A stretch of 32,000 nucleotides of DNA from Nostoc punctiforme PCC 73102 (GTDB lineage Bacteria; Cyanobacteriota; Cyanobacteriia; Cyanobacteriales; Nostocaceae): NCBI RefSeq assembly GCF_000020025.1, contig NC_010628.1:3510001-3542000 (forward strand), given 5' to 3'. This document shows positions 5-24,438 of this stretch, one piece after another; position 1 is the stretch's first letter, and the number at the start of each line of letters is the position of its first letter. The notes under the pieces are model-generated. The model saw nothing but the letters and a program-made list of their open reading frames with translations. It was not told the DNA's origin and searched no databases. The position numbers and the translations under genes are program-made.

Positions 5-47
5 TAAAAAATAGGGGTTCAGAATAAGGCTTAAGACTTAAACCCCT
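5..47 (-). terminator. Candidate rho-independent terminator closing the kinase/HopA1-like operon
   Basis: Inverted repeat AGGGGTT (13-19) / AACCCCT (41-47). On the minus strand the stem is followed by T6 (complement of A6-A11). The loop is long (21 nt), hence moderate confidence. Confidence 0.5.
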
Positions 48-153
48 GATTAAGGGTTAATGCTTAAGCCTTAAGCCTTGTTATTTAAAATCTAAAATTG
101 AGTGAGCAAGAATATATCTTCAATCAAGAACTGGAAGTATCACATTCGGCGAT

Positions 154-1371
154 TCAGAGATTTATGGAAGTGTAGATATCATCCGAGTTTGGATTTAGGT
201 AAGGACGTTGCAATTCAATTTCCCATAATGAAAAATGCCGCAGAATTGCTGCTATCTTATCTGCTGGCGTATCATTTCCTAGATGCCAAGCTTCAAGCAA
301 ACCATTAGCAACAATTTGGCATCGATGTGTACCAAAACTTTCATGATCGCCAAATTTACGGTCTGGTTCTTCAGCGATCGCTAACCCTGGTGCTATAAAC
401 TTGGTAAATAAAGGTACTTGCTGCTGAAAATGCACTTGATTTTCTTTATATACCCTCTCTAAGACTGGACGAACAAGTTCATAATCCTTTTTGTCAAAAT
501 AAAGAACTGCTGAGTCGTAACGCCCATAATCAGAAGGGTTGTACAATGCTTTAAATGAGAAGGCAATGGATATAGCATTGAGTTGGCTAGTCAAATCGTT
601 CATGACTGCAACTGAGCCTTCGGGGGTCAAATTGAAGTAGACACGTACCAAAGTTTGATAATTTCGAGCCATAGCTGCATTAGCAATTGCCATATAAAAT
701 CCGTTTTGCACCAGATTCTTAGGCATTTTGATTGCTATTGAGTCACCAATATTAGCAGCTTGTTGTAAGCTATCGGGTTCAACGTGCACCCTCAAACCGT
801 TCTTATGCACCACCAAACTACCATCTAAGTCTTCTTTTAGAACCAGCCAATTATCATTCCAGTAGCCTACACCTCTGTTATTTTCATGCAAGCGATCGTA
901 AAAAGCTATATCTACACCAAATAGTGTATTGTTTTCGATATCTTGGTTTAAAGCCAAATTTGCTGCTTCTTTATTGGATGACGGAAGACTTTTCAATGAG
1001 CCATTGTAGTATAAGGCGTAAAGTATACTACGTAATTGATGACTCAAAAACTTATTTTGAAAATCTAAAGATAATTGTTGAAAGTGAGAGACTATTGATT
1101 CTGGTACTTCCACCGGGCCAAACTCTGGATGTCTAATACAATGGTAAGACTGGATTTCAACCTTATGAACGATATCTCGTAGTGATGTCTGCAATGACTC
1201 TGGAATATCTGATATTTGATTTGCCAGCGAATCTAATAGTTGCATAGAAACTTGCCTGTCAATAATGTGGAGAGATAGGGACAGACAAACAAAAAATGTT
1301 TGCGTCCCTTTGTTGACTTGGAATTTATTTTGAAGCGGGAGATAAATTAATGGGAGAGAGGTCTGATGCAT
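154..1371 (-). CDS. HopA1-family-like protein; candidate phospho-Ser/Thr lyase partner of the adjacent kinase
   Basis: 405-aa ORF directly downstream of the kinase on the same strand. The first ATG (1371) overlaps the kinase 3' end by 47 nt. An alternative ATG at 1245 (MQLLDSLANQ...) gives 364 aa with no overlap. I recall the C-terminal block RVYFNLTPEG...FSFKALYNPSDYGRYDSAVLYFDKKDY as typical of proteins annotated 'T3SS effector HopA1 family' in cyanobacteria. This family call is from memory and not verified by search. Confidence 0.55.
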   Translation of the reverse strand: MHQTSLPLIYLPLQNKFQVNKGTQTFFVCLSLSLHIIDRQVSMQLLDSLANQISDIPESLQTSLRDIVHKVEIQSYHCIRHPEFGPVEVPESIVSHFQQLSLDFQNKFLSHQLRSILYALYYNGSLKSLPSSNKEAANLALNQDIENNTLFGVDIAFYDRLHENNRGVGYWNDNWLVLKEDLDGSLVVHKNGLRVHVEPDSLQQAANIGDSIAIKMPKNLVQNGFYMAIANAAMARNYQTLVRVYFNLTPEGSVAVMNDLTSQLNAISIAFSFKALYNPSDYGRYDSAVLYFDKKDYELVRPVLERVYKENQVHFQQQVPLFTKFIAPGLAIAEEPDRKFGDHESFGTHRCQIVANGLLEAWHLGNDTPADKIAAILRHFSLWEIELQRPYLNPNSDDIYTSINL

Positions 1372-2515
1372 CTACACCAAAAATTGTTGGTATCGATGCT
1401 TCTGGACGGCATAATAAACTTTTAGCAACCTGGAGTATGCAAATACCTTTATTACCAAAAGTTTTTTCGTGCTGGAGTTTGGCTTGAATAGATTTAATCA
1501 AAGCGAAACCGCAAAACTGCATAACTCTCTGTAAAAAATCAGGATGAAGTTCTATAATTTCGGGGAAAGCAGAGAGGTAAGCAATCACCAACTCTCTAAT
1601 AGAAGGTTGCAGCAAATGTAGAGGAGTTGTTGCTAGACGTAAAGACTCTTGAATCGCCATTGTTTTACTGGTAATCATACTGTGTAGCCAAAGTTGTAGA
1701 TAGCTGGCTATCAGTGTTCCTAAATCACTAGCTGGATCTCCCCAAGCGCCACGTTCCCAATCAATCAATCGAATAATACTCTCATCTGAGGACGATTCAT
1801 TAAAAGCAGCTTCTTCCCAATTCAGGGAGAGGAGAATATTGTTTAGTTTCAGATCGTTATGGGTTAAACAACAGGGAATCAAGGCATTATTCAACTCTGC
1901 GATCGCCTGCCCTAGGCTATCATAACGTTGATAAAGAGACAAAAATTTTAGTCCATCGGTAGGTAACTTACCAAAAACTGCCGGGGAAACTCTATCCATT
2001 CCAAGATTTAGGTTAGGAATTCCTTGGCCAAATATATTCTTATTTAGGAAGAACTCTTGATACTCTTGACGGTCAATAGATAGGCGATGAATTGATGCCA
2101 AAGTAGTTCCAACTAGCATTGCAATCTTTATAGGAAATAATTTCAAATTCCTTTCCACATAAAAATCCATCAAATCCCGATAGTTAGTTAGATAATTGAA
2201 AACAAAGATTGAATTTTCAGGATCAAAATGTACTGCTTCTGAAAAATATGAGCGAATGTCGCTTAGTTCTGGGAAAGTTTGCAAAAAGTTATGAACTCGC
2301 CATTCTTTTAAAAACTCGCCAGAAGTCTTTCCCTCTCTTTTGTGAGGCTCTTGCTTAATTAGGAGTTTTCGGTTATCTGGTAAGCTGATTAATAAGTTAA
2401 AGTTTTTAGCAGGTACTAGCTCGATTTTGCTTAAAGACTTTTCATTTTGAGTACATAATCCTTGAAGAATCAGATAATCAAAAGCATTTTTAGAACTCAA
2501 TACAAATGATGTCAT
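1325..2515 (-). CDS. Aminoglycoside-phosphotransferase (APH)/protein-kinase-fold phosphotransferase
   Basis: 396-aa ORF. Catalytic-loop motif HNDLKLNNILL (HxDxxxxN), metal-binding Asp motif LIDWERGAWGDPASDLG, and an N-lobe Lys candidate in LLIKQE. Confidence 0.8.
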   Translation of the reverse strand: MTSFVLSSKNAFDYLILQGLCTQNEKSLSKIELVPAKNFNLLISLPDNRKLLIKQEPHKREGKTSGEFLKEWRVHNFLQTFPELSDIRSYFSEAVHFDPENSIFVFNYLTNYRDLMDFYVERNLKLFPIKIAMLVGTTLASIHRLSIDRQEYQEFFLNKNIFGQGIPNLNLGMDRVSPAVFGKLPTDGLKFLSLYQRYDSLGQAIAELNNALIPCCLTHNDLKLNNILLSLNWEEAAFNESSSDESIIRLIDWERGAWGDPASDLGTLIASYLQLWLHSMITSKTMAIQESLRLATTPLHLLQPSIRELVIAYLSAFPEIIELHPDFLQRVMQFCGFALIKSIQAKLQHEKTFGNKGICILQVAKSLLCRPEASIPTIFGVDASDLSPINLSPASK

Positions 2516-2659
2516 GGCTTCACGAAAGTATCAATGTTAACAATTAAGAGCTTTTGCATAGTTAATATTTTTAATAGATTAACAACCTATTATACCCACT
2601 AACTATGTGTAGATGAATTATCATACAATACCTATTATTTTCGGCTGTATGAATTAACC

Positions 2660-2697
2660 AAAAAAAGGTTAAAAATTCCAGGAATGTTTAACCTTTT
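2660..2697 (-). terminator. Intrinsic terminator (possibly leaky) between the precursor-like genes and the kinase gene
   Basis: Perfect 11-bp inverted repeat AAAAGGTTAAA (2663-2673) / TTTAACCTTTT (2687-2697) with a 13-nt loop. On the minus strand the 3' arm runs into a 7-nt T tract (2666 down to 2660). It starts 12 nt after the stop of the 2709..2921 gene. Confidence 0.6.
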
Positions 2698-2708
2698 GAA
2701 TTGATGCA

Positions 2709-2921
2709 CTATTGAGTGTTGAATGATTCTGCTAACTCTGCAACTTCATGGATAGCAAATGCCAACAAAGCAAAATTAAGGTTTTTCAAGCCATAGTTAA
2801 GAATTTGAGCAAGATCGTCATCTGCACCAGCATATATAGATATGTAATCAAGGTTGCTAATGTCTATTAGAAAACCTTCTGAATCATCGGTATGCAGATC
2901 AGAAATGGTAATTTTTGGCAT
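2709..2921 (-). CDS. Diverged paralog (c8) of the tandem-array peptides; double-glycine-type (AG) leader
   Basis: The ORF track gives 2709..2942. The start at M8 (2921, MPKITISDL...) aligns with MASIALSQL... of the array copies. Shared blocks: SEGFLIDISNLDYISIYAG vs SESFLSDLNNVDTITIYGG, and ILNYGLKNLNFALLAFA vs LLAYGIKGQEFALLGFG. No Cys. Confidence 0.7.
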   Translation of the reverse strand: MPKITISDLHTDDSEGFLIDISNLDYISIYAGADDDLAQILNYGLKNLNFALLAFAIHEVAELAESFNTQ

Positions 2922-3152
2922 GGATTCAAATCCCAAAAACATTGATCAATTAGTCAATGCGAGCATGAGTAAGCATCAATTACTTAATAATGTCGCCCGG
3001 CAGTCAGGAAAAAATTAATAAAATTGATCAACTGCTATAATCAAGCTTTAAATTGCTTAATCCAATGAAATATTCTGATTTTTGATAATCAAAAAAGCTG
3101 AATTTTAATCAGATTAATTTATTCAAAGCTATTTATTGCACCAGAATTTGGC

Positions 3153-3182
3153 AGCGATTAAGCTGTGTATTACTTAATCGCT
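3153..3182 (-). promoter_or_regulatory. Intercistronic stem-loop H1 (downstream of c1)
   Basis: AGCGATTAAG-ctgtgtatta-CTTAATCGCT: perfect 10-bp stem, 10-nt loop. Confidence 0.6.
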
Positions 3183-3223
3183 AATTTAAAAAGTTCCACA
3201 GAGCAATGTAGCTCAGTAGTCAA

Positions 3224-3484
3224 TTAATAGTGAGTATCTGTGTCACTAAATGACTTGACGATGTGTGCAGTCAAGCTAGCTCCAAAGCCTAACAATGCGA
3301 ACTCTTGTCCCTTAATGCCATAAGCTAAAAGTGGCTCTATGCCATGAGCAACGCTGGAAATCTCATAACCACCACCATAAACAGTTATAGAATCTACATT
3401 GTTCAGGTCGCTGAGGAAGCTTTCAGAATCTTGAAACAGTTCAGAACCAGTGGTATTTAGTTGCGAAAGAGCAATACTAGCCAT
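3224..3484 (-). CDS. Array copy c1: double-glycine-leader precursor-like peptide, 86 aa (YEISSVAHG / ...THY variant)
   Basis: The ORF is kept open in all copies, and differences from c2 are synonymous only (GCT/GCG, ATT/ATC, TTT/TTC). Leader ...FLSDLNNVDSITVYGG. The SD is degraded (TAGGGTAAAATT-ATG) relative to the other copies. Confidence 0.8.
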   Translation of the reverse strand: MASIALSQLNTTGSELFQDSESFLSDLNNVDSITVYGGGYEISSVAHGIEPLLAYGIKGQEFALLGFGASLTAHIVKSFSDTDTHY

Positions 3485-3526
3485 AATTTTACCCTACAAA
3501 AATTGTTACAGTTGAGCAGATTTGGC

Positions 3527-3556
3527 AGCGATTAAGCTGTGTATTACTTAATCGCT
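3527..3556 (-). promoter_or_regulatory. Intercistronic stem-loop H2 (between c2 and c1)
   Basis: AGCGATTAAG-ctgtgtatta-CTTAATCGCT: perfect 10-bp stem. Confidence 0.6.
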
Positions 3557-3597
3557 AATTTAAAAAGTTCCACAGAGCAATGTAGCTCAGTAGTCAA

Positions 3598-3858
3598 TTA
3601 ATAGTGAGTATCTGTGTCACTAAATGACTTGACGATGTGTGCAGTCAAGCTAGCTCCAAAGCCTAACAATGCGAACTCTTGTCCCTTAATGCCATAAGCT
3701 AAAAGTGGCTCTATGCCATGAGCAACGCTGGAAATCTCATAACCACCACCATAAACAGTTATAGAATCTACATTGTTCAGGTCGCTGAGGAAGCTTTCAG
3801 AATCTTGGAACAGTTCAGAACCAGTGGTATTTAGTTGCGAAAGAGCGATACTCGCCAT
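3598..3858 (-). CDS. Array copy c2: 86 aa, protein identical to c1
   Basis: Same ORF as c1. Canonical SD AGGAGAAAATT-ATG. Confidence 0.85.
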   Translation of the reverse strand: MASIALSQLNTTGSELFQDSESFLSDLNNVDSITVYGGGYEISSVAHGIEPLLAYGIKGQEFALLGFGASLTAHIVKSFSDTDTHY

Positions 3859-3900
3859 AATTTTCTCCTAAAATAATTGTTACAGTTGAGCAGATTTACC

Positions 3901-3930
3901 AGCGATTAAGCCGTGTATTACTTAATCGCT
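3901..3930 (-). promoter_or_regulatory. Intercistronic stem-loop H3 (between c3 and c2)
   Basis: AGCGATTAAG-ccgtgtatta-CTTAATCGCT: perfect 10-bp stem. About 41 nt after the upstream stop and 42 nt before the next ATG. Confidence 0.6.
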
Positions 3931-3971
3931 AATTCAAAAACTTACACAGAGAAATGTAGCTTAATAGTCAA

Positions 3972-4238
3972 TTAATAGTGAGTATCTGTGTCGCTAAATG
4001 ACTTGACGATGTGTGCAACTAAGCTAGCTCCAAAGCCTAACAATGCGAACTCTTGTCCCTTAATGCCATAAGCTAAAAGTGGCTCGATACCTTCAGAAAC
4101 ATTGGAAACTTCACCTTCATCGCCACCACCATAAATAGTGATAGTATCTACATTGTTCAGGTCGCTGAGGAAGCTTTCAGAATCTTGGAACAGTTCAGAA
4201 CCAGTGGTATTTAGTTGCGAAAGAGCGATACTCGCCAT
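3972..4238 (-). CDS. Array copy c3: 88 aa (DEGEVSNVSEG / ASLVAH / ...THY variant)
   Basis: Conserved ORF with an AGGAG SD. Leader ...FLSDLNNVDTITIYGG. Confidence 0.85.
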   Translation of the reverse strand: MASIALSQLNTTGSELFQDSESFLSDLNNVDTITIYGGGDEGEVSNVSEGIEPLLAYGIKGQEFALLGFGASLVAHIVKSFSDTDTHY

Positions 4239-4280
4239 AATTTTCTCCTAAAATAATTGTTACAGTTGAGCAGATTTACC

Positions 4281-4310
4281 AGCGATTAAGCCGTGTATTA
4301 CTTAATCGCT
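4281..4310 (-). promoter_or_regulatory. Intercistronic stem-loop H4 (between c4 and c3)
   Basis: Same sequence as H3. Confidence 0.6.
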
Positions 4311-4351
4311 AATTCAGAAACTTCCACAGAGCAATGTAGCTCAGTAGTCAA

Positions 4352-4618
4352 TTACAGGTTAGTATCTGTGTCGCTAAATGACTTGACGATGTGTGCAGTC
4401 AAGCTAGCTCCAAAGCCTAACAATGCGAACTCTTGTCCCTTAATGCCATAAGCTAAAAGTGGCTCAATACCTTCAGAAACATTGGAAACATCACCTTCAT
4501 CACCACCACCATAAATAGTGATGGTATCTACATTGTTTAGGTCGCTGAGGAAGCTTTCAGAATCTTGGAACAGTTCAGAACCAGTGGTATTTAGTTGCGA
4601 AAGAGCGATACTTGCCAT
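4352..4618 (-). CDS. Array copy c4: 88 aa (DEGDVSNVSEG / ...TNL variant)
   Basis: Conserved ORF with an AGGAG SD. Protein identical to c6. Confidence 0.85.
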   Translation of the reverse strand: MASIALSQLNTTGSELFQDSESFLSDLNNVDTITIYGGGDEGDVSNVSEGIEPLLAYGIKGQEFALLGFGASLTAHIVKSFSDTDTNL

Positions 4619-4660
4619 GATTTTCTCCTAAAATAATTGTTACAGTTGAGCAGATTTACC

Positions 4661-4690
4661 AGCGATTAAGCCGTGTATTACTTAATCGCT
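4661..4690 (-). promoter_or_regulatory. Intercistronic stem-loop H5 (between c5 and c4)
   Basis: Same sequence as H3. Confidence 0.6.
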
Positions 4691-4731
4691 AATTCAAAAA
4701 CTTACACAGAGCAATGTAGCTCAGTAGTCAA

Positions 4732-4998
4732 TTAATAGTGAGTATCTGTGTCGCTAAATGACTTGACGATGTGTGCAGTCAAGCTAGCTCCAAAGCCTAA
4801 CAATGCGAACTCTTGTCCCTTAATGCCATAAGCTAAAAGTGGCTCAATACCTTCAGAAACATTGGAAACTTCACCTTCATCGCCACCACCATAAATAGTG
4901 ATAGTATCTACATTGTTCAGGTCGCTGAGGAAGCTTTCAGAATCTTGGAACAGTTCAGAACCAGTGGTATTTAGTTGCGAAAGAGCGATACTCGCCAT
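4732..4998 (-). CDS. Array copy c5: 88 aa (DEGEVSNVSEG / ...THY variant)
   Basis: Conserved ORF with an AGGAG SD. One residue differs from c3 (T vs V). Confidence 0.85.
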   Translation of the reverse strand: MASIALSQLNTTGSELFQDSESFLSDLNNVDTITIYGGGDEGEVSNVSEGIEPLLAYGIKGQEFALLGFGASLTAHIVKSFSDTDTHY

Positions 4999-5040
4999 AA
5001 TTTTCTCCTAAAATAATTGTTACAGTTGAGCAGATTTACC

Positions 5041-5070
5041 AGCGATTAAGCCGTGTATTACTTAATCGCT
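5041..5070 (-). promoter_or_regulatory. Intercistronic stem-loop H6 (between c6 and c5)
   Basis: Same sequence as H3. Confidence 0.6.
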
Positions 5071-5111
5071 AATTCAGAAACTTCCACAGAGCAATGTAGC
5101 TCAGTAGTCAA

Positions 5112-5378
5112 TTACAGGTTAGTATCTGTGTCGCTAAATGACTTGACGATGTGTGCAGTCAAGCTAGCTCCAAAGCCTAACAATGCGAACTCTTGTCCCT
5201 TAATGCCATAAGCTAAAAGTGGCTCAATACCTTCAGAAACATTGGAAACATCACCTTCATCACCACCACCATAAATAGTGATGGTATCTACATTGTTTAG
5301 GTCGCTGAGGAAGCTTTCAGAATCTTGGAACAGTTCAGAACCAGTGGTATTTAGTTGCGAAAGAGCGATACTTGCCAT
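5112..5378 (-). CDS. Array copy c6: 88 aa, identical to c4
   Basis: Nucleotide-identical to c4 over the whole ORF by eye. Confidence 0.85.
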   Translation of the reverse strand: MASIALSQLNTTGSELFQDSESFLSDLNNVDTITIYGGGDEGDVSNVSEGIEPLLAYGIKGQEFALLGFGASLTAHIVKSFSDTDTNL

Positions 5379-5420
5379 GATTTTCTCCTAGAATAATTGT
5401 CACAGTTGAGCAGATTTGGC

Positions 5421-5450
5421 AGCGATTAAGCCGTGTATTGCTTAATCGCT
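5421..5450 (-). promoter_or_regulatory. Intercistronic stem-loop H7 (between c7 and c6)
   Basis: AGCGATTAAG-ccgtgtattg-CTTAATCGCT: perfect stem, one loop change. Confidence 0.6.
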
Positions 5451-5491
5451 AATTCAAAAAGTTACATAGAGAAATGTAGCTTAGTAGTCAA

Positions 5492-5758
5492 TTACAGGTC
5501 AGTATCTGTGTCGCTAAATGACTTGACGATGTGTGCAGTCAAGCTAGCTCCAAAGCCCATCAATCCGAACTCTAGTCCCTTAGTGCCATAACCTAAAAGT
5601 GGCTCGATACCCTCGGCAACATTGGAAACTTCACCTTCATTGCCACCACCATAAATAGTGATGGTATCTACATTGTTCAGGTCGCTGAGGAAGCTTTCAG
5701 AATCTTGGAACAGTTCAGAACCAGTGGTATTTAGTTGTGAAAGAGCGATACTCGCCAT
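5492..5758 (-). CDS. Array copy c7 (promoter-proximal): 88 aa, most diverged array member (NEGEVSNVAEG, LLGYGTKGLEFGLMGFG, ...TDL)
   Basis: Conserved ORF with an AGGAG SD. The leader is identical to c3-c6, and the substitutions are in the C-terminal part. Confidence 0.85.
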   Translation of the reverse strand: MASIALSQLNTTGSELFQDSESFLSDLNNVDTITIYGGGNEGEVSNVAEGIEPLLGYGTKGLEFGLMGFGASLTAHIVKSFSDTDTDL

Positions 5759-5801
5759 AATTTTCTCCTAAAGTAATTCGTCACAGTCGAGTAGATTTGG
5801 C

Positions 5802-5831
5802 AGCGATTAAGCTGTGTATTGCTTAACTGCT
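5802..5831 (-). promoter_or_regulatory. Degenerate copy of the stem-loop (H8) in the 5' leader upstream of c7
   Basis: AGCGATTAAG-ctgtgtattg-CTTAACTGCT. Two positions of the 3' arm are swapped, which breaks the middle of the stem. It marks the array boundary. Confidence 0.45.
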
Positions 5832-6308: not shown

Positions 6309-6347
6309 AAAAAAAATAGTGCGCCCTTAATTAATCTAAGAGCGCAC
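6309..6347 (-). terminator. Rho-independent terminator of the 76-aa double-glycine peptide gene
   Basis: Stem GTGCGC(C)CTTA (6319-6329) / TAAG(A)GCGCAC (6337-6347). On the minus strand it is followed by T8 (complement of A6309-6316). It lies 37 nt after the stop at 6384. Confidence 0.7.
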
Positions 6348-6383: not shown

Positions 6384-6614
6384 TTATTGTAAACCAGTCA
6401 GTTGTTTTCGTAGGTCTACTATTTGCTCTTCCATCTTGCTTAACCAATCATTAACAGTCTCTTTTACCTTCTGTGTTGAAAGCGTGGTAGCAGTATCTTC
6501 ATCGTCTCTTCTGGATCTTCTTCTCCCACCCTCTACAGTTCTCATTTCCCAATCGGTTAGTTCGGTGATGAGATTCACGTCATTATTAGGATGCAGGTTA
6601 GATATTACGATCAT
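6384..6614 (-). CDS. Double-glycine-leader peptide with a highly charged, helix-prone cargo (76 aa)
   Basis: The leader NLITELTDWEMRTVEGG fits the double-glycine consensus exactly in register (L-12, E-8, M-7, V-4, G-2, G-1). The cargo is RRRSRRDDEDTATTLSTQKVKETVNDWLSKMEEQIVDLRKQLTGLQ. It has its own terminator, and GAGG lies 15 nt upstream of the ATG. The overlapping plus-strand ORF 6355..6651 is judged spurious. Confidence 0.65.
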   Translation of the reverse strand: MIVISNLHPNNDVNLITELTDWEMRTVEGGRRRSRRDDEDTATTLSTQKVKETVNDWLSKMEEQIVDLRKQLTGLQ

Positions 6615-6875: not shown

Positions 6876-8393
6876 TTAATTCTTCGCCTGTGGCTGCGAA
6901 CCAGGAATCGTTACATCTATTGGTGTCACCTGCGCTGCTAGCTGCGTCAATGGTGGTTGAATGGCGGTTTGATTCCCCACCACTAGAGTCACGAGCTTTT
7001 CTGGCTTGAGGTATTCTCGTGCTACCCGTTGCACGTCAGCAGCTGTGGTGGCGGCGACGGCTTTTTGATAGCGAAAGAGAAAATCAGCCGGATAGCCGTA
7101 ATATTCGTATCGCATCAACCGTGATAAGGTTTGGCTGGGGTCTTGAAAGTTGAATACAAAGGAGTTGAGTGTAGATTCTTTGGCAAAAGCCAGTTCTTTT
7201 GCTGTCACTCTTTGAGTTTGAATGCGCTTGATTTCAGCTTGTAAGGCTTTGACAAACTGCACGGTAGCGTCCGATCGCGTTTGTCCACCAGCAATAAATA
7301 TGCCAGGATAATCGTAGCGGGGACTCCACTCGCCATAAACAGAGTAAGCTAAACCTTGGCGCGATCGCAATTCATTAAATAAGCGTCCACCAAATCCATT
7401 TAACACCCCATTCAAGACATCCAGCGCTGCATAATCGGGACTGTCAAACCGTCCGCCTAAATGGCCGAGAAGCACACTACTTTGGGTTAATTGCGGCTGA
7501 TTGACAAAAAAGACTCCACCTGTATTAGCTGGCGAAACCGATGGTAATTTCGGTTTAGCAATACCTGGGTTGCGATTCCAGTCGCCAAACTTAGCTTGAA
7601 CGAGCGATCGCATTTTCTTAGAGTCAAAATCCCCCACAATCCCCAAAATTATATTATTGGGGTGGAAATATTGCTGATAAAACTTCAGCAAATCCTCACG
7701 CTCAACCCGATCCACCGTTGCATACTCTATGGTGCGAGAGTATGGACTATCTTTGCCATAGATTAATTTTTTAAATTCTCGACTAGCAATCCCATCTGGA
7801 TTGTCATTGCGGCGGGCAATGCCACCCTTAGCTTGTGTCTTAGCCAAGTCTAGCTTTTCTTGAGCAAATGCTGGCGATCGCAGCACCTCGGCAAATAGCC
7901 CAAACACCGTTTCTAAATCTTCACTCAGGGCATCAAAGCTAGCACTACCAGAGCTTTCACCAATACTAGCTTCTACAGATGCCGCCCGCTGTTCCAATAT
8001 CTCGTTGAGTTCATCAGCCGAATGTTGCTTAGTTCCCCCAGTTCGCATTACCGCGCCTGTAAAACCAGCTAACCCAACTTTTTCCATTGGTTCCAGGCGA
8101 TTTCCTGTCCGCACAAACGCCGTCCCATTCACCAACGGCAACTCGTGATCCTCCATCAAATAGACAACCAAGCCATTTTGGAGAACAAACCGTTCATATT
8201 TCGGTATCTTAATCTCAGGTAGCGCTGGCAACTGCAACTCACTATAATGCTTTGCCTCAGTCGTCGCCGCCAGAGAAAAATTACAAGTTAAAAGTAAACA
8301 CGCAAAAACAGCAACTAAAGCATAAATTAACCCCTTCCCATTTTTGATTTTCAACGCCATCTGCCTTTTACCCTTCACCTTGTACCTCTTCAT
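6876..8393 (-). CDS. M16-family peptidase-like protein, non-catalytic type (no HxxEH), secreted
   Basis: 505-aa ORF (the start may be the internal M at MALKIKNGKG). N-terminal signal/TM LIYALVAVFACLLLTCNF. GFTGAVMRTGGT sits where the partner has HFLEHLAFKGT. It aligns with the partner along its length. Confidence 0.8.
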   Translation of the reverse strand: MKRYKVKGKRQMALKIKNGKGLIYALVAVFACLLLTCNFSLAATTEAKHYSELQLPALPEIKIPKYERFVLQNGLVVYLMEDHELPLVNGTAFVRTGNRLEPMEKVGLAGFTGAVMRTGGTKQHSADELNEILEQRAASVEASIGESSGSASFDALSEDLETVFGLFAEVLRSPAFAQEKLDLAKTQAKGGIARRNDNPDGIASREFKKLIYGKDSPYSRTIEYATVDRVEREDLLKFYQQYFHPNNIILGIVGDFDSKKMRSLVQAKFGDWNRNPGIAKPKLPSVSPANTGGVFFVNQPQLTQSSVLLGHLGGRFDSPDYAALDVLNGVLNGFGGRLFNELRSRQGLAYSVYGEWSPRYDYPGIFIAGGQTRSDATVQFVKALQAEIKRIQTQRVTAKELAFAKESTLNSFVFNFQDPSQTLSRLMRYEYYGYPADFLFRYQKAVAATTAADVQRVAREYLKPEKLVTLVVGNQTAIQPPLTQLAAQVTPIDVTIPGSQPQAKN

Positions 8394-8436
8394 ATCTCTC
8401 TACCTTTGCGCCCTCAGCGCCTCTGCGGTTCGTTTT

Positions 8437-10041
8437 TCATCCTTCTTTCGACAACAACTTACCAATCGTGCGATTTCCTGGCGTAAACGTCTCCTTCGCC
8501 ACTCGCTGAATATCAGCCGTCGTTACCGCCGAAATATCATCCAACTGCTTAAACAAATTCCGCCAAGAGCCAGTTTTCACCTCATATTCCAACAATTGTT
8601 GAGCCATCCCCATATTTGAATCGAGAGTACGTAACAAACCCGCCCGTGCTTGGGTTTTCACCCGTTCCAAATCAATCGCCGCGACAGGCTCAGTTTTTAA
8701 TTTGTCAATTTCTTGGCGCAAAGCCACCGCCAACTCATCAACTGTATGACCAGGAGCCGTGAGAGCATAGAATAACATCAGGTTTGGGTACTTATCTCCA
8801 GGAAAACCGCTAAAACCTTGGGCATTTAGCGCCAAACGCTGTTTTTCTACCAAAGACTTATACAAGCGCGACGTGCGCCCATCACTTAATAAACTACCAA
8901 TGATTTCATAGGTTGCATTATCTGGATGGGTAACTGCTGGGCGATGATAACCTTCTAAATACCAGGGTTGAGAAGGTAGTTGTAAAGTAACTTCTTGTGT
9001 TTGTTTTTGTGGCGGTTCCACGGGGATTTGTTCAACAGCTTTGGTTTTTGCTTTATAGCGGCCAAAATAAGTTTGCGCCAGTTTTTTCACTTCAGCCGGG
9101 TTAACATCTCCAACAATAGCGATCGCTAAATTACTTGGTACGTAGTGAGTATCAAAGAAATTTTGGACATCATCTGGTGTCAGATTGCGGATATCTTGGT
9201 CATAACCAATTACCGGACGCTTGTAAGGATGGACTTTATAAGCAGTATCGATAAACTTTTCCACCATTTGTCCAATCGGTGAATTCTCTACCCGCAGCCG
9301 TCGTTCTTCTAAAATGACATCTTTCTCTTTATAAAACTCACGACGAATTACCGGATCGAGAAACCGTTCCGACTCCAGCGACATCCACAGTTCCAGCTTA
9401 TTGGCAGGAAAACTGTAAAAATAACGGGTAGCTTCGGTTGAAGTATTGGCATTTAAACCCACACCTCCCGCTTGTTCCACAATTTGTCCCAATTCGTTTT
9501 GCTTGACAAGCTTACCTGCTTGTGATTCTACTTGCTTGAACTCAGTTTCTAATTGAGCAACCTCGTCTTTTTTGCCATCGGCTTTCGCTGCTTTAATTTG
9601 AGTATCTAACTGCTGCAATCTCTCTAGTAGAGGTTTTTCTGCTTTGTAGTCTTGCGTACCAATGCGCGTTGTACCTTTAAACGCCAAATGTTCTAGAAAG
9701 TGAGCTACACCGGTTTTACCATCTGGCTCATCCACACCTCCAACATTTGCATAAGTCAGGAAGGAAACCACAGGCGCTTGATGCCGTTCTAAGACAAGGA
9801 ATTTTAGACCATTGTCGAGGCGAAACTCCGTTAACTGTTTAATAACTCGATCCAGATAAGGTTGGATCGAATTTTGAACTGGTGGAGTTTGAGTTTTGGT
9901 TTCTTGAGGAGGTGCAACTTGAGTTTGAGCCAGAGCAATTTCTGGTAGCAATCCCCACCAGAAAACGATCAAAGCCAACAAAGTGACAAACAACCGCCGT
10001 AATAAATCCAAAATTGACCGACTGATCTGGTTCATAAGCAA
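8437..10041 (-). CDS. M16-family zinc peptidase (pitrilysin-like), catalytic type, secreted
   Basis: 534 aa. Inverted zinc motif HFLEHLAFKGT, downstream VILEERR glutamates, and an N-terminal hydrophobic signal/anchor LFVTLLALIVFWWGLL. Confidence 0.85.
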   Translation of the reverse strand: MLMNQISRSILDLLRRLFVTLLALIVFWWGLLPEIALAQTQVAPPQETKTQTPPVQNSIQPYLDRVIKQLTEFRLDNGLKFLVLERHQAPVVSFLTYANVGGVDEPDGKTGVAHFLEHLAFKGTTRIGTQDYKAEKPLLERLQQLDTQIKAAKADGKKDEVAQLETEFKQVESQAGKLVKQNELGQIVEQAGGVGLNANTSTEATRYFYSFPANKLELWMSLESERFLDPVIRREFYKEKDVILEERRLRVENSPIGQMVEKFIDTAYKVHPYKRPVIGYDQDIRNLTPDDVQNFFDTHYVPSNLAIAIVGDVNPAEVKKLAQTYFGRYKAKTKAVEQIPVEPPQKQTQEVTLQLPSQPWYLEGYHRPAVTHPDNATYEIIGSLLSDGRTSRLYKSLVEKQRLALNAQGFSGFPGDKYPNLMLFYALTAPGHTVDELAVALRQEIDKLKTEPVAAIDLERVKTQARAGLLRTLDSNMGMAQQLLEYEVKTGSWRNLFKQLDDISAVTTADIQRVAKETFTPGNRTIGKLLSKEG

Positions 10042-10184: not shown

Positions 10185-10799
10185 ATGCGAGTTTTTAATT
10201 CTTCCCCACCCTCAGAGGCTCAGACGCGCACCCGAATTTTACAGGCAGCACAACGGTTGTTCGCCTCTCAAGGATTTGATGGCACTACCACCCGTGATTT
10301 AGCGCAGGCGGCAGGTGTAGCTGAAGGCACTTTATTTCGTCATTTTCCCAATAAAAAAGCAATTTTAGTAGAAGTAGCCACGAGTGGCTGGGTAGAAATT
10401 TTAACAGATTTGCTAACAGAATTAAGTGAAATGGGCAGCTATAAAGCTGTAGCTCAAGTGATGCGTCGCCGGATGTGGAACTTTCAAAAAAATGCCGATT
10501 TGATGCGCGTTTGTTTTATGGAGGTGCAATTTCATCCTGATTTGCGCGATCGCATTCAATTAGAAGTCATTACTAAAATGACCGATGTCGGCGAAGCATT
10601 CTTCCAAACAGCAATGGATAAAGGCATTTATCGCAAAATGGACGCAAAGCTAGTTGCGAAAGTTTTCTTGGGAATGTTTGCGATCGCAGGTTTTTCTAAC
10701 AACACCCTCATCGAACCTGACGCTTCCCCCCAACAAATGCAGGAAATGGCTGAAGGACTCGCTGATATCTTCCTTAATGGTGTTTTAGCTAAGGATTAG
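10185..10799 (+). CDS. TetR/AcrR-family transcriptional regulator
   Basis: N-terminal HTH TRTRILQAAQRLFASQGFDGTTTRDLAQAAGVAEGTLFRHFPNKKAIL. Divergent from the M16 pair. Confidence 0.85.
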   Translation: MRVFNSSPPSEAQTRTRILQAAQRLFASQGFDGTTTRDLAQAAGVAEGTLFRHFPNKKAILVEVATSGWVEILTDLLTELSEMGSYKAVAQVMRRRMWNFQKNADLMRVCFMEVQFHPDLRDRIQLEVITKMTDVGEAFFQTAMDKGIYRKMDAKLVAKVFLGMFAIAGFSNNTLIEPDASPQQMQEMAEGLADIFLNGVLAKD

Positions 10800-14541: not shown

Positions 14542-15033
14542 ATGATAAAAAACCCTATAGGATTACTACTCAACGGATTTATTGTCAGCTTCGGACTATT
14601 GCCATTATTAGCTCAAGCACAGCAGCCAGTACCGGTTTCTGATGCCCAAGTTGCAGCAATGGTAGAAGCATTGCGACAGGCTGCACCGCAAACAAAAAAT
14701 CCCAATGATGGATATTACAGCGAATGGCAAGTGAAACCAGAAACCCTCAAAGGCTGGTCAAGAACTTGTCTCAAACGAGAATTAACACCGACACAGTTTG
14801 AAAACAATCCTGCGATCGCTCGCCAAGTTGTCTCTTGCATTACCCGCCGTGAGTTAAGCAATCAGTTCCGCGCCACCAACAATAATGAAATTGCATCTGT
14901 GCGTGGCGCAGCTTGTTGGTGGATGACTGGTAGCTATACAGGTTGCAACAAAGGTTTCACTGCTGAGTATGTGCAAAAAGTTGTCCGTTTTTACCAACAA
15001 CAGCGTTCAAAACCGACAGCAACTCAATCATAA
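14542..15033 (+). CDS. Secreted hypothetical protein (signal peptide, 4 Cys)
   Basis: 163 aa. N-terminal signal LLLNGFIVSFGLLPLLAQAQ. No recognisable catalytic motif. Confidence 0.6.
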   Translation: MIKNPIGLLLNGFIVSFGLLPLLAQAQQPVPVSDAQVAAMVEALRQAAPQTKNPNDGYYSEWQVKPETLKGWSRTCLKRELTPTQFENNPAIARQVVSCITRRELSNQFRATNNNEIASVRGAACWWMTGSYTGCNKGFTAEYVQKVVRFYQQQRSKPTATQS

Positions 15034-19311: not shown

Positions 19312-19941
19312 TTAAATGTGGCTTCTAACCCATTGGCGAAATTCTTTAACTAATTCTAAATAATCTTTTTCTCCCACTTGCGCTAAAAAGTTAGAAATCT
19401 CTGTTAATGGCAAATTGGGAAATATTAAACTCCGTTCAACAGATATATATTTATGATTTTCTAAAATGTTAATACTAAAATCATTACTATCATATCGCCA
19501 GATTTCAGGCACACCCATATCGGCATAAACTTGAAAGCAATTTATAGAACTGTTAGTAATATCAATTTCTACTACCAAATCTGGCGGTGGATCTTGGGAT
19601 AAATCTATTCTTTTTTTGCCTTTTATGAAATTAATATTTTCAATGTAAAAGCATTCATCTGGTTCTGCGCCACTCAGTTCTGGGCGCTTGAAAGTAGTAG
19701 AACCAAGGCAGTCAATTCTAACTTCTAGTTCTTCTGCAAGAGTTTCAACAAATCGACCCGCAATTCTTTTGTATCGTTCATGTTCAGGTGAAGGAGCCAT
19801 GATTTCTAGACTACCTCGATTGTAAGTAAGCCGGAGGCGGCGACTAGCACTAAGTTCAGTTAGCAAGTTTTCATAGGTTTGCCAACTGATACCCGATAAG
19901 TGGATGATTTCTGTGGGTTGAAGCAGTGTGTTGCTAGCCAT
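19312..19941 (-). CDS. Uma2-family (DUF820) restriction-endonuclease-like protein
   Basis: Start taken at the internal ATG 19941 (MASNTLLQP...). Motifs LEIMAPSPEHERYK, EPDECFYI, PPDLVVEIDITNSS and GVPEIWRYD. Confidence 0.8.
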   Translation of the reverse strand: MASNTLLQPTEIIHLSGISWQTYENLLTELSASRRLRLTYNRGSLEIMAPSPEHERYKRIAGRFVETLAEELEVRIDCLGSTTFKRPELSGAEPDECFYIENINFIKGKKRIDLSQDPPPDLVVEIDITNSSINCFQVYADMGVPEIWRYDSNDFSINILENHKYISVERSLIFPNLPLTEISNFLAQVGEKDYLELVKEFRQWVRSHI

Positions 19942-20156
19942 AGCGATATGTGATGTAGGTTCTCGCTGTACAATAGCCCTTCTTCGCCTCATTGTACTTT
20001 AAGCTCAATCTTCTATAAAGGTAGGTATCTGGTTGCTACAGTCGCGGTGAAAACTACTAAGCTGGTAAATAGCACGTTTAAAATTTAGCGGAAATTCGGA
20101 ATCGCATTTATCGGCGGTTCAAGATTCCTCATTGGCGAACTACCTGTAATTACATT

Positions 20157-23994: not shown

Positions 23995-24029
23995 ACAAAT
24001 AACAAATGATAAAGGACAAATGACAAATG
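23995..24029. repeat. Heptamer repeat ACAAATG x5 (two degenerate)
   Basis: ACAAATA ACAAATG ATAAAGG ACAAATG ACAAATG. The final ATG is the start codon of the 24027 gene. Confidence 0.8.
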
Positions 24030-24431: not shown

Positions 24432-24438
24432 TATAGAT

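What the first reader, a model, noticed from the sequence alone, without database searches (positions are those of the whole stretch)
154..5831. Candidate undescribed RiPP-like system: eight Cys-free double-glycine-leader peptides plus an APH-fold kinase and a HopA1-like protein
Read right to left on the minus strand, the order is seven tandem 86-88-aa genes (5758->3224), a diverged eighth paralog (2921->2709), a terminator, an APH/protein-kinase-fold phosphotransferase (HNDLKLNN, IDWE), then a roughly 400-aa protein I recognise as HopA1-family, and an operon-end terminator at 5-47. All eight peptides have a hydrophilic N-terminal half that ends in a double-glycine-type motif in the correct register (L-12, D-8, I-4, G-2 G-1: FLSDLNNVD(T/S)IT(I/V)YGG; paralog FLIDISNLDYISIYAG). 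This is followed by a 47-49-aa part with a conserved amphipathic block (LLAYGIKGQEFALLGFGASL) and a Ser/Thr-acidic tail (KSFSDTDT-xx). Kinase plus HopA1-like lyase pairs are the established Ser/Thr dehydration machinery of class V lanthipeptides (LxmK/LxmY) and thioamitides (TvaC/TvaD). Here, however, no peptide contains any Cys. The window also has no cyclase, YcaO, radical-SAM enzyme or flavin decarboxylase. The product therefore cannot be a lanthipeptide or a thioamitide. The inferred outcome is a phosphorylated or Dha/Dhb-bearing peptide of a type I do not know to be described, encoded at unusually high gene dosage.
Basis: partly seen in the sequence, partly recalled or inferred. Interest (0 to 1): 0.92.

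Follow-up and report, generated by a model that had tools for sequence, protein, structure and literature searches.

The report
Catalogued cyanobacterial kinase/lyase peptide gene cluster
This stretch of the Nostoc punctiforme genome really does encode many copies of a small cysteine-free secreted-type peptide next to a kinase/lyase enzyme pair that probably turns serines into reactive dehydro-residues, but this cluster family, and this very locus, was already listed in published genome-mining studies, and nobody has yet shown what the peptides become or do.

Summary
The window carries seven tandem 86-88-aa genes, a diverged paralog, an APH-fold kinase and a HopA1-family protein (Pfam E 5e-60), all on the minus strand. 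The kinase's best fold match in the PDB is LxmK. The HopA1 protein aligns with the lyase LxmY and keeps the catalytic Arg/Lys/Arg/Tyr. No core has Cys, and no cyclase, YcaO or decarboxylase is found here or in 23 orthologous loci.

"Undescribed" is wrong. Eyles et al. 2021 defined this family ("Family 1A": cyanobacteria only, conserved double-glycine leader, several precursors, no conserved Cys). Their dataset contains these exact peptides under HopA1 WP_012409362. Wang et al. 2011 had already catalogued the cluster type as "group II". I found no paper that characterises a product.

My additions:
- The gene order is conserved: pepC, pepA x2-8, pepB, kinase, HopA1, often then a HetP-like gene and a divergent rotamase/HlyD/C39-ABC exporter. 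That exporter module is missing beside the N. punctiforme copy.
- One Ser ("KSF") is invariant in 135 pepA/pepB cores.
- The Anabaena PCC 7120 ortholog sits next to a gene I infer to be the commitment regulator asl1930.

Most likely chemistry: leader-guided Ser/Thr dehydration without cyclisation, then cleavage after Gly-Gly and export. Function is unknown.

The parts
154..1245 (-). HopA1-family (LanY/LxmY-like) phospho-Ser/Thr lyase, 363 aa. The open frame extends upstream to 1371.
   Evidence: Pfam PF17914 at E 5.3e-60. phmmer hit to LxmY, PDB 9DK1_B, at E 9e-8 with R/K/R/Y aligned. These four residues are invariant in 23 orthologs. The gene is called from the internal ATG in L007.
1325..2515 (-). 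APH-fold peptide kinase (LanK/LxmK-like), 396 aa
   Evidence: Pfam APH 26.8 bits against a 23.2 cut-off. NCBIfam LxmK E 1.1e-17, but 64 bits against an equivalog cut-off of 315. The AF2 model (pLDDT 73.8) has LxmK 9DK3/2/1 chain A as its best PDB fold matches, E 1e-12. K54, H219, D221, N226 and D252 are invariant in 33 orthologs.
2657..2705 (-). Hairpin followed by a U7 run, between the peptide genes and the enzyme genes. Likely an attenuating terminator.
   Evidence: Fold energy -13.7 kcal/mol, z = -3.14 against shuffles. Not scored by the simple terminator scan, because the stem is AT-rich and exceeds the scan's loop limit of 3-8 nt.
2709..2921 (-). pepB: a single-copy diverged precursor, 70 aa. 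Its leader ends in AG and its core ends in ...AELAESFNTQ.
   Evidence: A single-copy ortholog lies between the pepA array and the kinase in 18 of the other 22 loci that cover that interval; L002-L004 have none and L024 was not scored. Listed in the Eyles 2021 dataset.
3224..5758 (-). pepA array: seven tandem precursor genes at 3224-3484, 3598-3858, 3972-4238, 4352-4618, 4732-4998, 5112-5378 and 5492-5758. Each has a leader ...ELFQDSESFLSDLNNVDxITxYGG and an anionic, Cys-free, mostly helical core that ends in KSFSDTDTxx.
   Evidence: There are 69 homologous protein clusters, nearly all from Nostoc and other Nostocales. Exact sequences appear in the Eyles 2021 ESI. Ser80 is invariant in 135 of 135 distinct pepA/pepB sequences.
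6319..6347 (-). Intrinsic-terminator-like hairpin with a T-run, just downstream of pepC
   Evidence: 12-bp stem with 6 GC pairs, followed by T8. Fold z = -3.3.
6384..6614 (-). pepC: a single-copy third precursor type, 76 aa. Its leader is ...LITELTDWEMRTVEGG, and its core starts RRRSRR and ends in a helical tail. It has no ELFQDSESFL motif and no KSF motif.
   Evidence: An ortholog lies upstream of the array in the 15 loci with enough upstream sequence. A PCC 7107 homolog is listed in the Eyles ESI.
6876..10041 (-). Pair of M16 (insulinase-type) peptidase genes with N-terminal signal or transmembrane segments (6876-8393 and 8437-10041). Possibly associated as a second protease; association not established.
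   Evidence: Pfam. Located immediately upstream of pepC in 13 loci, but absent within 10 kb in L002-L005, L017 and L018. Wang 2011 lists M16 as a group II cluster domain. A leader-bearing peptide lies next to fragmented M16 genes in L025.
26..79 (-). Strong hairpin downstream of the HopA1 gene, the probable end of the operon
   Evidence: Fold energy -29.7 kcal/mol, z = -5.05.

Best explanation
**What it is.** This is the Nostoc punctiforme copy of a cyanobacterial RiPP-like gene cluster that published genome-mining studies already list. Its product has not been characterised. Eyles 2021 call the family 'Family 1A' of HopA1/phosphotransferase clusters. Wang 2011 call the cluster type 'group II' cyanobacterial bacteriocin cluster.

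**Proposed mechanism.**
1. Three paralogous classes of double-glycine-leader precursors are made: pepC x1, pepA x7 and pepB x1. pepA is in large excess because of its gene dosage and because a hairpin attenuator lies ahead of the enzyme genes.
2. The LxmK-like kinase and the LxmY-like lyase, probably acting as a heterodimer, bind the conserved leader helix (ELFQDSESFL). They phosphorylate Ser/Thr in the core and then eliminate the phosphate, which gives Dha/Dhb.
3. The best candidate site is the invariant Ser80 in the 'KSF' motif, together with the Ser/Thr of the SFSDTDT tail.
4. There is no Cys and no cyclase, so no thioether forms. The product is a linear, anionic, largely helical peptide that carries dehydro-residues.
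5. A C39-peptidase ABC exporter with an HlyD partner cuts after Gly-Gly and exports the peptide. This module, with a parvulin-type rotamase, lies next to the cluster in most genomes. In N. punctiforme it must be encoded elsewhere.

**What is shown and what is inferred.**
- Shown: the anatomy, the homologies, the conservation of catalytic residues and the synteny.
- Inferred: the enzyme-substrate pairing, dehydration as the end-point, the modified site, and export.
- Unknown: the biological role. The options are a membrane-active or antagonistic peptide, or a physiological or developmental peptide.
For: **Enzymes**
- HopA1 domain at E 5e-60.
- Alignment to the solved lyase LxmY keeps R/K/R/Y. 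This matches the mutagenesis-defined CaoY R187/K219/R229/Y236 and their +10/+17 spacing. All four are invariant in 23 orthologs.
- The kinase model's best PDB matches are LxmK chains, and its catalytic motifs are invariant.
- LxmK/LxmY and CaoK/CaoY are established as kinase-lyase dehydratase heterodimers.

**Substrates**
- The leader is shared by 658 representative peptide clusters with hypervariable cores. Of 134 evaluable cores, 131 contain Ser/Thr and 100 have no Cys.
- Ser80 is invariant in 135 of 135 pepA/pepB sequences.
- The AF2 model places a helix over the leader motif and a disordered segment around the Gly-Gly site, but confidence is low.

**Co-occurrence**
- The order peptides-kinase-HopA1 is found in every locus examined.
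- Eyles 2021 report that 96% of HopA1 proteins lie next to a phosphotransferase.

**Export**
- A cNMP-binding/C39/ABC exporter, HlyD and a rotamase are adjacent in 16 loci.
- The C39 domain has the catalytic QQSAADCG motif and a downstream His.

**No other tailoring enzyme** is conserved in the neighbourhood.
Against: - There is no experimental evidence that any member of this cyanobacterial family is modified.
- The invariant Ser is replaced by Leu ('KLF') in distant pepB-like relatives that still sit beside a kinase/HopA1 pair. 'KSF' may therefore be a structural helix-end motif rather than the modification site.
- The N. punctiforme locus lacks the exporter module. Downstream of HopA1 come a 2TM protein, a phasin, an FKBP protein and DnaB.
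- The cores carry net charges of -3 to -6, which is atypical of membrane-active bacteriocins.
- pepC lacks the ELFQDSESFL motif and may not be a substrate.
- In PCC 7120, asl1933, which by position is one of the peptide genes, was reported as not expressed after nitrogen step-down.
- The kinase scores far below the NCBIfam LxmK equivalog cut-off, 64 bits against 315.
Confidence: 0.6

Rival explanations
1. The cluster is a conserved physiological or developmental peptide system of filamentous cyanobacteria, not an antagonistic natural-product cluster. The exported peptides, dehydrated or not, would act in cell-cell signalling, in the envelope or extracellular matrix, or in the timing of heterocyst commitment. 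They would be coupled to the adjacent HetP-like regulator and to an exporter that resembles HetC. This rival concerns the role; it is compatible with the dehydration chemistry proposed above.
For: - The order pepC, pepA x n, pepB and the core motifs (YG-K-xx-EF ... KSF) are conserved across many Nostocales genera. Antibiotic cores would be expected to vary more.
- Kinase orthologs at 62% identity or more occur in nearly every named Nostocales genus.
- asl1933 is listed among genes specific to heterocyst-forming cyanobacteria.
- A HetP-like gene follows HopA1 in 9 loci. In PCC 7120 this gene is, by strand, size and position, asl1930. Deleting asl1930 advances commitment.
- Wang 2011 noted that HetP-like genes are skewed towards group II clusters.
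- Single-copy pepB and pepC beside multi-copy pepA suggests a major and minor subunit stoichiometry.
Against: - The same cluster with a HetP-like gene occurs in a Leptolyngbyaceae MAG (L004).
- Family 1A extends to Trichodesmium, Rippkaea and other non-heterocystous taxa.
- N. punctiforme and its closest relatives have lost the HetP-like/exporter linkage.
- No phenotype has been tied to the peptides or the enzymes.
- The asl1930 identification is inferred from coordinates and the locus-tag naming convention. It has not been checked against an annotation.
Confidence: 0.22
2. The end product keeps phospho-Ser/Thr. The HopA1-like protein would then serve mainly as a leader-binding or scaffold partner, or it would eliminate phosphate at only some sites.
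For: - Eyles 2021 explicitly left open a non-catalytic role for the HopA1-like TsaD.
- CaoY lyase mutants accumulate phosphorylated peptide, so such species are chemically stable.
- The acidic Ser/Thr tail (SFSDTDT) resembles an acidophilic kinase site.
Against: - All four residues shown to be needed for elimination in CaoY are invariant in 23 orthologs.
- Every characterised kinase/HopA1 pair performs full dehydration.
Confidence: 0.08
3. The peptides are unmodified double-glycine (class II-like) secreted peptides. The kinase/HopA1 pair acts on something else, such as pepC only, the HetP-like protein, or a self-immunity or regulatory target.
For: - No core residue other than Ser80 is invariant, and Ser80 is Leu in distant relatives.
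- A hairpin separates the peptide genes from the enzyme genes.
- One leader-bearing peptide, in L025, has no kinase/HopA1 within 8 kb.
Against: - The ELFQDSESFL leader is far longer and more conserved than export alone requires. It tracks the kinase/HopA1 pair across hundreds of clusters with unrelated cores.
- Of 134 evaluable cores, 131 retain Ser/Thr.
- L025 is a fragmented metagenome contig with frameshifted genes.
Confidence: 0.1

Closest known systems
Cyanobacterial 'Family 1A' HopA1/phosphotransferase RiPP-like BGCs (Eyles, Vior, Lacret & Truman, Chem Sci 2021, PMC8153245)
   Same: It is the same thing. The family is confined to cyanobacteria and pairs a HopA1 protein with a phosphotransferase. 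It has several non-identical precursors with a conserved double-glycine leader and cores without conserved Cys. The window's peptides and HopA1 (WP_012409362) are rows in the paper's dataset.
   Different: Nothing differs at the family level. The paper gives no product and no sub-architecture. The conserved pepC/pepA/pepB order, the invariant KSF serine, the missing exporter in N. punctiforme and the asl1930 adjacency in PCC 7120 are not described in its main text.
'Group II' cyanobacterial bacteriocin gene clusters (Wang, Fewer & Sivonen, PLoS One 2011, PMC3140520)
   Same: Both have Gly-Gly-leader precursors, a long-type C39 ABC exporter, HlyD, a SurA-like rotamase, extra 'modification genes', M16 peptidases and HetP-like neighbours. 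Two such clusters were counted in N. punctiforme.
   Different: In 2011 the kinase and HopA1 were not recognised as a dehydratase. The N. punctiforme locus in this window lacks the exporter, HlyD and rotamase part.
Class V lanthipeptide dehydratases LxmK/LxmY and CaoK/CaoY (lexapeptide, cacaoidin; PDB 9DK1-3)
   Same: Both use a split APH-fold kinase and a HopA1-fold lyase. The catalytic residues are conserved, and the kinase's closest fold match is LxmK.
   Different: Identity is only about 15-16% for the kinase. The precursors have no Cys, so no lanthionine or AviMeCys can form. No LanD decarboxylase, cyclase or reductase is present. The leader is a different, double-glycine type. The host is a cyanobacterium, not an actinobacterium.
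Thioamitide TsaC/TsaD (TvaC/TvaD) dehydration module
   Same: A kinase plus a HopA1-like protein is required for Thr/Ser dehydration.
   Different: There is no YcaO/TfuA, no Cys decarboxylase, no methyltransferase and no thioamide chemistry. The precursors are unrelated.
hetC-hetP locus of Anabaena PCC 7120 (C39 ABC exporter next to HetP)
   Same: A C39-peptidase ABC exporter is linked to a HetP-family gene. In PCC 7120 the cluster's HetP-like gene appears to be asl1930, a studied HetP homolog.
   Different: The gene order and orientation differ. No kinase/HopA1 pair or peptide array is known at hetC-hetP; that statement rests on my own knowledge and was not tested here. Whether the exporter is a HetC paralog was not tested.

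Membership tests
Eyles 2021 Family 1A (cyanobacterial HopA1/phosphotransferase RiPP-like BGC) | HopA1-domain protein encoded next to an APH-type phosphotransferase in a cyanobacterium | tested here: met
   The organism is Nostoc punctiforme by 99-100% protein identity.
Eyles 2021 Family 1A (cyanobacterial HopA1/phosphotransferase RiPP-like BGC) | Several precursors share the conserved leader that ends in a double glycine, and the cores lack conserved Cys | tested here: met
   The exact sequences are listed in the paper's ESI dataset under WP_012409362, network 1.
Wang 2011 group II cyanobacterial bacteriocin cluster | HlyD, a long C39-peptidase ABC transporter and a SurA-like rotamase lie adjacent to the precursors and modification genes | tested here: not met
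   These genes are absent from the window and from 7 kb downstream of HopA1 in N. punctiforme. They are present next to the orthologous cluster in 16 other loci, including PCC 7120. The local copy is therefore a truncated or split version.
Wang 2011 group II cyanobacterial bacteriocin cluster | M16 peptidase and HetP-like genes are associated | tested here: inconclusive
   The M16 pair is present at 6876-10041. It may reflect broader synteny, because PhzF, DUF4332 and TetR are conserved alongside it. A HetP-like gene is absent here and present in 9 orthologous loci.
Class V lanthipeptide (lanthidin) BGC | LanK-type kinase and LanY-type HopA1 lyase | tested here: met
   The match is at family and fold level. 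The NCBIfam LxmK equivalog cut-off is not reached (64 bits against 315).
Class V lanthipeptide (lanthidin) BGC | Cys in the core peptide, so that (methyl)lanthionine or AviMeCys can form | tested here: not met
   There are 0 Cys in the window's eight pepA/pepB peptides and pepC. Only 2 of 118 pepA and 2 of 17 pepB sequences contain any Cys; in the sequences printed those Cys are in the leader.
Class V lanthipeptide (lanthidin) BGC | Cyclase (LanX/LxmX-type) and/or LanD flavin decarboxylase or reductase in the cluster | tested here: not met
   No such Pfam family is found in the window or in 23 related loci.
Thioamitide BGC | YcaO/TfuA thioamidation pair and a Cys decarboxylase | tested here: not met
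   Absent from the window and from the related loci.
Class II (unmodified) double-glycine bacteriocins | Double-glycine leader with hydrophobic residues at -4, -7, -12 and -15 and an acidic residue at -8, cut by a C39 ABC exporter | tested here: inconclusive
   Positions -4, -8, -12 and -15 fit, but -7 is Thr/Ser. A catalytically intact C39 exporter is adjacent in orthologous loci only. Cleavage cannot be tested with these tools.
Class II (unmodified) double-glycine bacteriocins | Cationic, membrane-active mature peptide with a cognate immunity gene | tested here: not met
   Core net charge is -3 to -6 for pepA and pepB. No conserved candidate immunity gene was seen.

The most novel reading that the evidence does not exclude
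The cluster is not an antibiotic BGC. It would instead be a near-universal, vertically conserved three-peptide system of heterocyst-forming cyanobacteria, with a major pepA subunit and single-copy pepB and pepC. Its dehydroalanine-bearing, anionic helical peptides would be exported by a HetC-like C39 transporter and would act in filament physiology or in the timing of heterocyst commitment. They would work with the adjacent HetP-like regulator (Asl1930 in PCC 7120). The electrophilic Dha next to the conserved Lys might also form covalent (lysinoalanine-type) links between subunits or to envelope components.
Probability: 0.12. Interest if true: 0.8.

Novelty: already known. Interest (0 to 1): 0.4.

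Why it matters
If the chemistry is confirmed, this would be the first characterised product of the largest HopA1/kinase RiPP-like family. Eyles counted 183 clusters in 2021, and here the leader alone matches 658 representative peptide clusters.

It would show that the class V lanthipeptide dehydratase module also makes linear, Cys-free dehydropeptides. It would also give a leader and enzyme pair that could install Dha/Dhb in arbitrary cores.

For cyanobacterial biology, the cluster is conserved across Nostocales. In Anabaena PCC 7120 it sits beside a gene I infer to be a regulator of heterocyst commitment, together with a C39 exporter. That suggests a concrete genetic test of whether exported modified peptides feed into development.

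As a discovery claim, however, it is not new. The family, and this very locus, are already in the literature as predictions.

Tried and rejected
**Alternative identities for the tandem genes.** I considered gas-vesicle GvpA-like or other structural proteins. There is no Pfam or NCBIfam hit, and the leader clearly belongs to the Gly-Gly leader family, so I rejected this.

**Known RNA elements in the repeated spacers.** Rfam returns nothing above gathering score anywhere in the window.

**Promoters.** The consensus scan found fewer sites than the shuffles did (7 against 21.8), so no promoter claim is made.

**Direct sequence match of the kinase to LxmK in the PDB.** phmmer found nothing significant. 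Only the fold search and the NCBIfam HMM link the two.

**AlphaFold model of pepA.** Confidence is low (pLDDT 57.8), so I used it only for secondary-structure tendency.

**Later papers that characterise a cyanobacterial HopA1-cluster product.**
- Five papers mention both HopA1 and cyanobacteria. None characterises a product.
- No paper mentions both HopA1 and Nostoc.
- The leader sequence motif does not occur in any main text.
- The library covers open-access papers and bioRxiv only, so subscription-only papers could have been missed.

**alr2902 as the cluster's HetP-like gene in PCC 7120.** I rejected this. The coordinates, the complement strand and the 93-aa size fit asl1930 instead.

**The ABC transporter at 26754-28583 as the missing exporter.** I rejected this. 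It has no C39 domain, shares only 31% identity over the ABC part, and lies 21 kb away among unrelated genes.

**M16 peptidases as definite cluster members.** This is left unresolved (see parts).

**Multimer modelling of kinase, lyase and peptide.** Not possible with the tools available.

Full report
**1.

The minus strand of window 154-5831 carries the following, in the direction of transcription:
- Seven intact tandem genes of 86-88 codons, ending at 3224. Their coordinates are in the parts list.
- A diverged 70-77-codon paralog at 2709-2942.
- A 396-aa ORF at 1325-2515.
- A 405-aa ORF at 154-1371.

The seven genes sit in a DNA tandem repeat with a 374/380-nt period. Spacers included, copies are 92-100% identical within each length class and about 72-76% identical between the 86-aa and 88-aa classes.

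Pfam assigns the last ORF to HopA1 (PF17914) at E 5.3e-60 over the full profile. It assigns the 396-aa ORF to APH and choline-kinase families, just above the APH gathering score. The best NCBIfam match of the kinase is the class V lanthionine-synthetase subunit LxmK (E 1.1e-17), although it falls far below the equivalog cut-off. None of the peptides contains Cys.

The nearest protein relatives identify the organism as Nostoc punctiforme.

- The HopA1 gene probably starts at the internal ATG at 1245 (363 aa, as called in L007).
- The paralog probably starts at 2921.
It has its own Gly-Gly leader and a strong terminator at 6319-6347.

**2. The enzymes are a LanK/LanY-type dehydratase pair.**

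The lyase:
- A sequence search of the PDB with the HopA1 protein finds one significant relative. It is chain B ('Lyase') of 9DK1-3, at E 9e-8.
- That entry is the lexapeptide dehydratase heterodimer LxmK/LxmY.
- The alignment superposes vRvyf, fsfKaly, ygRyd and vlYf on the equivalent LxmY residues.
- The Lys, Arg and Tyr have the +10/+17 spacing of CaoY K219, R229 and Y236. An Arg lies about 31 residues upstream, like CaoY R187.
- Mutagenesis showed that K219, R187 and R229 are needed for phosphate elimination. The fourth residue, Tyr236, corresponds to SpvC Tyr158, which structural studies implicate in abstracting the alpha-proton; the paper did not mutate it.
- All four are invariant in 23 orthologs taken from the related loci.

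The kinase:
- phmmer finds no PDB relative of the kinase.
- An AlphaFold model built on 33 orthologs (pLDDT 73.8, pTM 0.78) has the three LxmK chains as its best PDB fold matches, at E about 1e-12 and TM 0.68/0.78. These rank ahead of methylthioribose and choline kinases.
- The ATP-binding Lys (K54), the catalytic loop H219-N-D221-L-K-L-N-N226 and D252 of IDWE are invariant.

**3. The peptides and their surroundings.**

I retrieved 24 related loci. Six came through a peptide (L001-L007, except that L006 duplicates part of L005) and the rest through HopA1 or the kinase.

One architecture recurs:
- pepC, in one copy.
- pepA, in 2-8 tandem copies.
- pepB, in one copy.
- The kinase.
- HopA1.
- In most genomes, then a HetP-family gene.
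- On the other strand, a parvulin-type rotamase, an HlyD-family protein and a roughly 1000-aa ABC transporter. The transporter has cNMP-binding and C39 peptidase domains.

The C39 domains keep the catalytic Gln/Cys (QQSAADCG) and the His. That fits cleavage after Gly-Gly.

The N. punctiforme lineage lacks this HetP/rotamase/HlyD/exporter module next to the cluster. This applies to the window, L007, L008, L009, L010 and L019. In L007 the genes after HopA1 encode a 2TM protein, a phasin, an FKBP protein and DnaB.

A pair of M16 peptidases precedes pepC in 13 loci, but so do PhzF, DUF4332 and TetR genes. The adjacency may therefore be ordinary synteny, and six loci lack it.

No cyclase, YcaO, radical-SAM enzyme, decarboxylase or reductase is conserved anywhere in these neighbourhoods.

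**4. Conservation within the peptides.**

pepA and pepB share an N-terminal leader, M-x-x-I-x-[IL]-S-x-L ... (E)LFQDSESFL ... Gly-Gly. pepC has a related start but a different second half, LTELTxWEMRxVEGG. After its Gly-Gly come an Arg-rich stretch and a helical tail.

I aligned 135 distinct pepA and pepB sequences from the loci and from the database search. The only invariant core residue is a Ser near the C-terminus, Ser80 of the 88-aa peptides. A Lys precedes it in 96% of sequences and Phe or Tyr follows it, giving 'KSF'. This holds even where the rest of the core has diverged beyond recognition, as in L005, L014-L018 and L020.

A profile of the family, searched against 1.84 billion representative proteins, finds 658 clusters at E <= 1e-3. 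Most of them match only the leader. Among 134 evaluable cores from the best 150 hits, 100 are Cys-free and 131 contain Ser/Thr.

In some distant pepB-like representatives the 'KSF' Ser is Leu ('KLF'). One of these still sits beside a kinase, HopA1, a rotamase and HlyD (L024). Ser80 is therefore the best candidate site in this locus, but the motif could be structural.

The cores are anionic: net -3 to -6 for pepA and pepB, and about +1 for pepC. A low-confidence AlphaFold model predicts a leader helix over ELFQDSESFLSDLNNVD, disorder around the cleavage site, and a largely helical core.

**5. What is already known.**

Eyles et al. 2021 (PMC8153245):
- They searched for HopA1 proteins and found that 96% lie next to a phosphotransferase.
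- They defined 'Family 1A' as 570 peptides in 183 BGCs. It is exclusive to cyanobacteria, has a conserved leader with a double-glycine motif, has variable C-terminal regions without conserved Ser, Thr or Cys, and typically has several non-identical precursors.
- Their supplementary dataset lists the window's pepA and pepB sequences verbatim under HopA1 WP_012409362 of N. punctiforme PCC 73102, in peptide network 1. The Calothrix PCC 7507 orthologs are listed too.

Liang et al. 2022 (PMC9486802) noted a cyanobacterial 'type-B' set of putative class V precursors. They selected only Cys-containing ORFs.

Wang et al. 2011 (PMC3140520) had already classified C39-exporter, HlyD and rotamase clusters with extra modification genes, M16 peptidases and HetP-like neighbours as 'group II'. 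They counted two in N. punctiforme.

The searchable library has five papers that mention both HopA1 and cyanobacteria, and none that mentions both HopA1 and Nostoc. None characterises a product. It is a published prediction whose chemistry and role remain open.

**6. A link to a model organism.**

The kinase has orthologs of 62-98% identity in nearly every named Nostocales genus. One of them lies on the Anabaena/Nostoc PCC 7120 chromosome, BA000019.2.

That locus (L023, 2,308,176-2,329,348) has the full set: an M16 pair, pepC, five pepA genes, pepB, the kinase, HopA1, a 93-aa HetP-family gene, the rotamase, HlyD and the C39 exporter.

The HetP-family gene lies on the complement strand, encodes fewer than 100 aa, and sits at about 2.3165 Mb. 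That fits the locus tag asl1930. The other known HetP paralogs (alr2818, alr2902, alr3234) are forward-strand genes located elsewhere. This identification is an inference from coordinates and the naming convention. It has not been checked against an annotation.

Deleting asl1930 is reported to advance commitment to heterocyst differentiation (PMC9045159, citing Videau et al. 2016). By the same numbering, asl1933 should be one of the peptide genes. It is listed among genes specific to heterocyst-forming cyanobacteria and was reported as not expressed after nitrogen step-down.

These links make a physiological or developmental role conceivable. Against that, the cluster with a HetP-like gene also occurs in a Leptolyngbyaceae MAG, and Family 1A extends to non-heterocystous genera.

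**7. Most likely mechanism, and how sure.**

I put 0.6 on the model given under the best explanation: leader-guided Ser/Thr dehydration by the kinase-lyase pair, no cyclisation, then Gly-Gly cleavage and export by a C39 ABC transporter encoded elsewhere in N. punctiforme.
- I am more confident, about 0.8, that this is a RiPP-type precursor and enzyme system.
- I am less confident, about 0.35, that Ser80 is the site.
- The seven-fold dosage and the hairpin before the enzyme genes would give a large excess of precursor over enzyme.

The rivals are:
- a phosphorylated end-product (0.08);
- unmodified peptides, with the enzymes acting on another substrate (0.10);
- for the biological role, a conserved physiological or developmental function rather than antagonism (0.22). 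This last one is compatible with the dehydration chemistry.

**8. Verdict.**

The feature is real and correctly read. It is not a lanthipeptide or thioamitide cluster, because the Cys and cyclase/YcaO criteria are tested and not met. It is a member of the published cyanobacterial Family 1A / group II cluster type, so I rate novelty as 'already known'.

The residual interest (0.4) has three sources: the product is unknown, the family is large, and this analysis adds some sub-structure. That sub-structure is the three peptide classes in fixed order, the invariant Ser, the split-off exporter in N. punctiforme, and the asl1930 adjacency in PCC 7120.

Noticed in passing
window 3224-5758 compared with L007 7346-10261; L022 compared with L023: The pepA array varies in copy number between closely related assemblies. 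The window has 7 copies, while a JGI N. punctiforme assembly that is 98-100% identical in the flanking genes has 8. Anabaena FACHB-709 has 4 and PCC 7120 has 5. The spacers are near-identical, which points to unequal crossing-over or gene conversion.
   Followed up: partly
window 2709-2921 (-) compared with L007 10565-10777: The residue before the conserved Ser of pepB is polymorphic between N. punctiforme assemblies. The window has ...AELAESFNTQ and L007 has ...AELAKSFNTQ. The otherwise 96%-conserved Lys is therefore not essential.
   Followed up: no
window 3135-3185, repeated in every spacer of the array (for example 3151-3166, 3525-3540 and 5800-5815): Each intergenic spacer of the array carries the same hairpin, with a stem of about 12 bp (UUAGCGAUUAAG...CUUAAUCGCUG). 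The fold of 3110-3225 (-) has z = -4.05. It could be an RNA processing or stabilising element for a polycistronic precursor transcript. Rfam gives no match.
   Followed up: partly
window 24471-25586 (-), and 24000-26000 generally: A 371-aa protein with an N-terminal TIR domain lies in a low-GC patch (0.30-0.36, against about 0.43 nearby). This may be a small defence or mobile island. A Uma2-family endonuclease gene lies at 19312-19992.
   Followed up: no
L025 8001-8159 and 8579-11077: A 52-aa peptide with the same leader and a short core (KMVVLVALIAILRH) lies beside fragmented, frameshifted M16 peptidase genes and an NRPS. No kinase or HopA1 is found within 8 kb. This is the only case seen of the leader without the enzyme pair, and it is a second, independent association with M16.
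   Followed up: no
L021 154-2485: In the Scytonema sp. RU_4_4 MAG, both the kinase and HopA1 are split into two ORFs each. This reflects either pseudogenisation or assembly frameshifts. The contig ends before any peptide genes.
   Followed up: no
L023 2741-3354 compared with L022 3083-3697: The divergent TetR-family regulator upstream of the M16 pair is split into two ORFs in the PCC 7120 reference. It is intact in the near-identical FACHB-709 assembly and in the window (10185-10799).
   Followed up: no
P0197, P0194, P0199, P0202 and P0224: Some relatives of pepA carry long Gly/Ala/Asn-rich, low-complexity C-terminal extensions after the KSF-type motif (for example ...AKSFSAAGIGGGGFGGAANGGTAPGG...). 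These look more like matrix or fibre proteins than antibiotics.
   Followed up: no
window 14542-15033 (+) and 29106-30062 (-): Two ORFs, of 163 and 318 aa, have no Pfam match at E <= 0.001.
   Followed up: no
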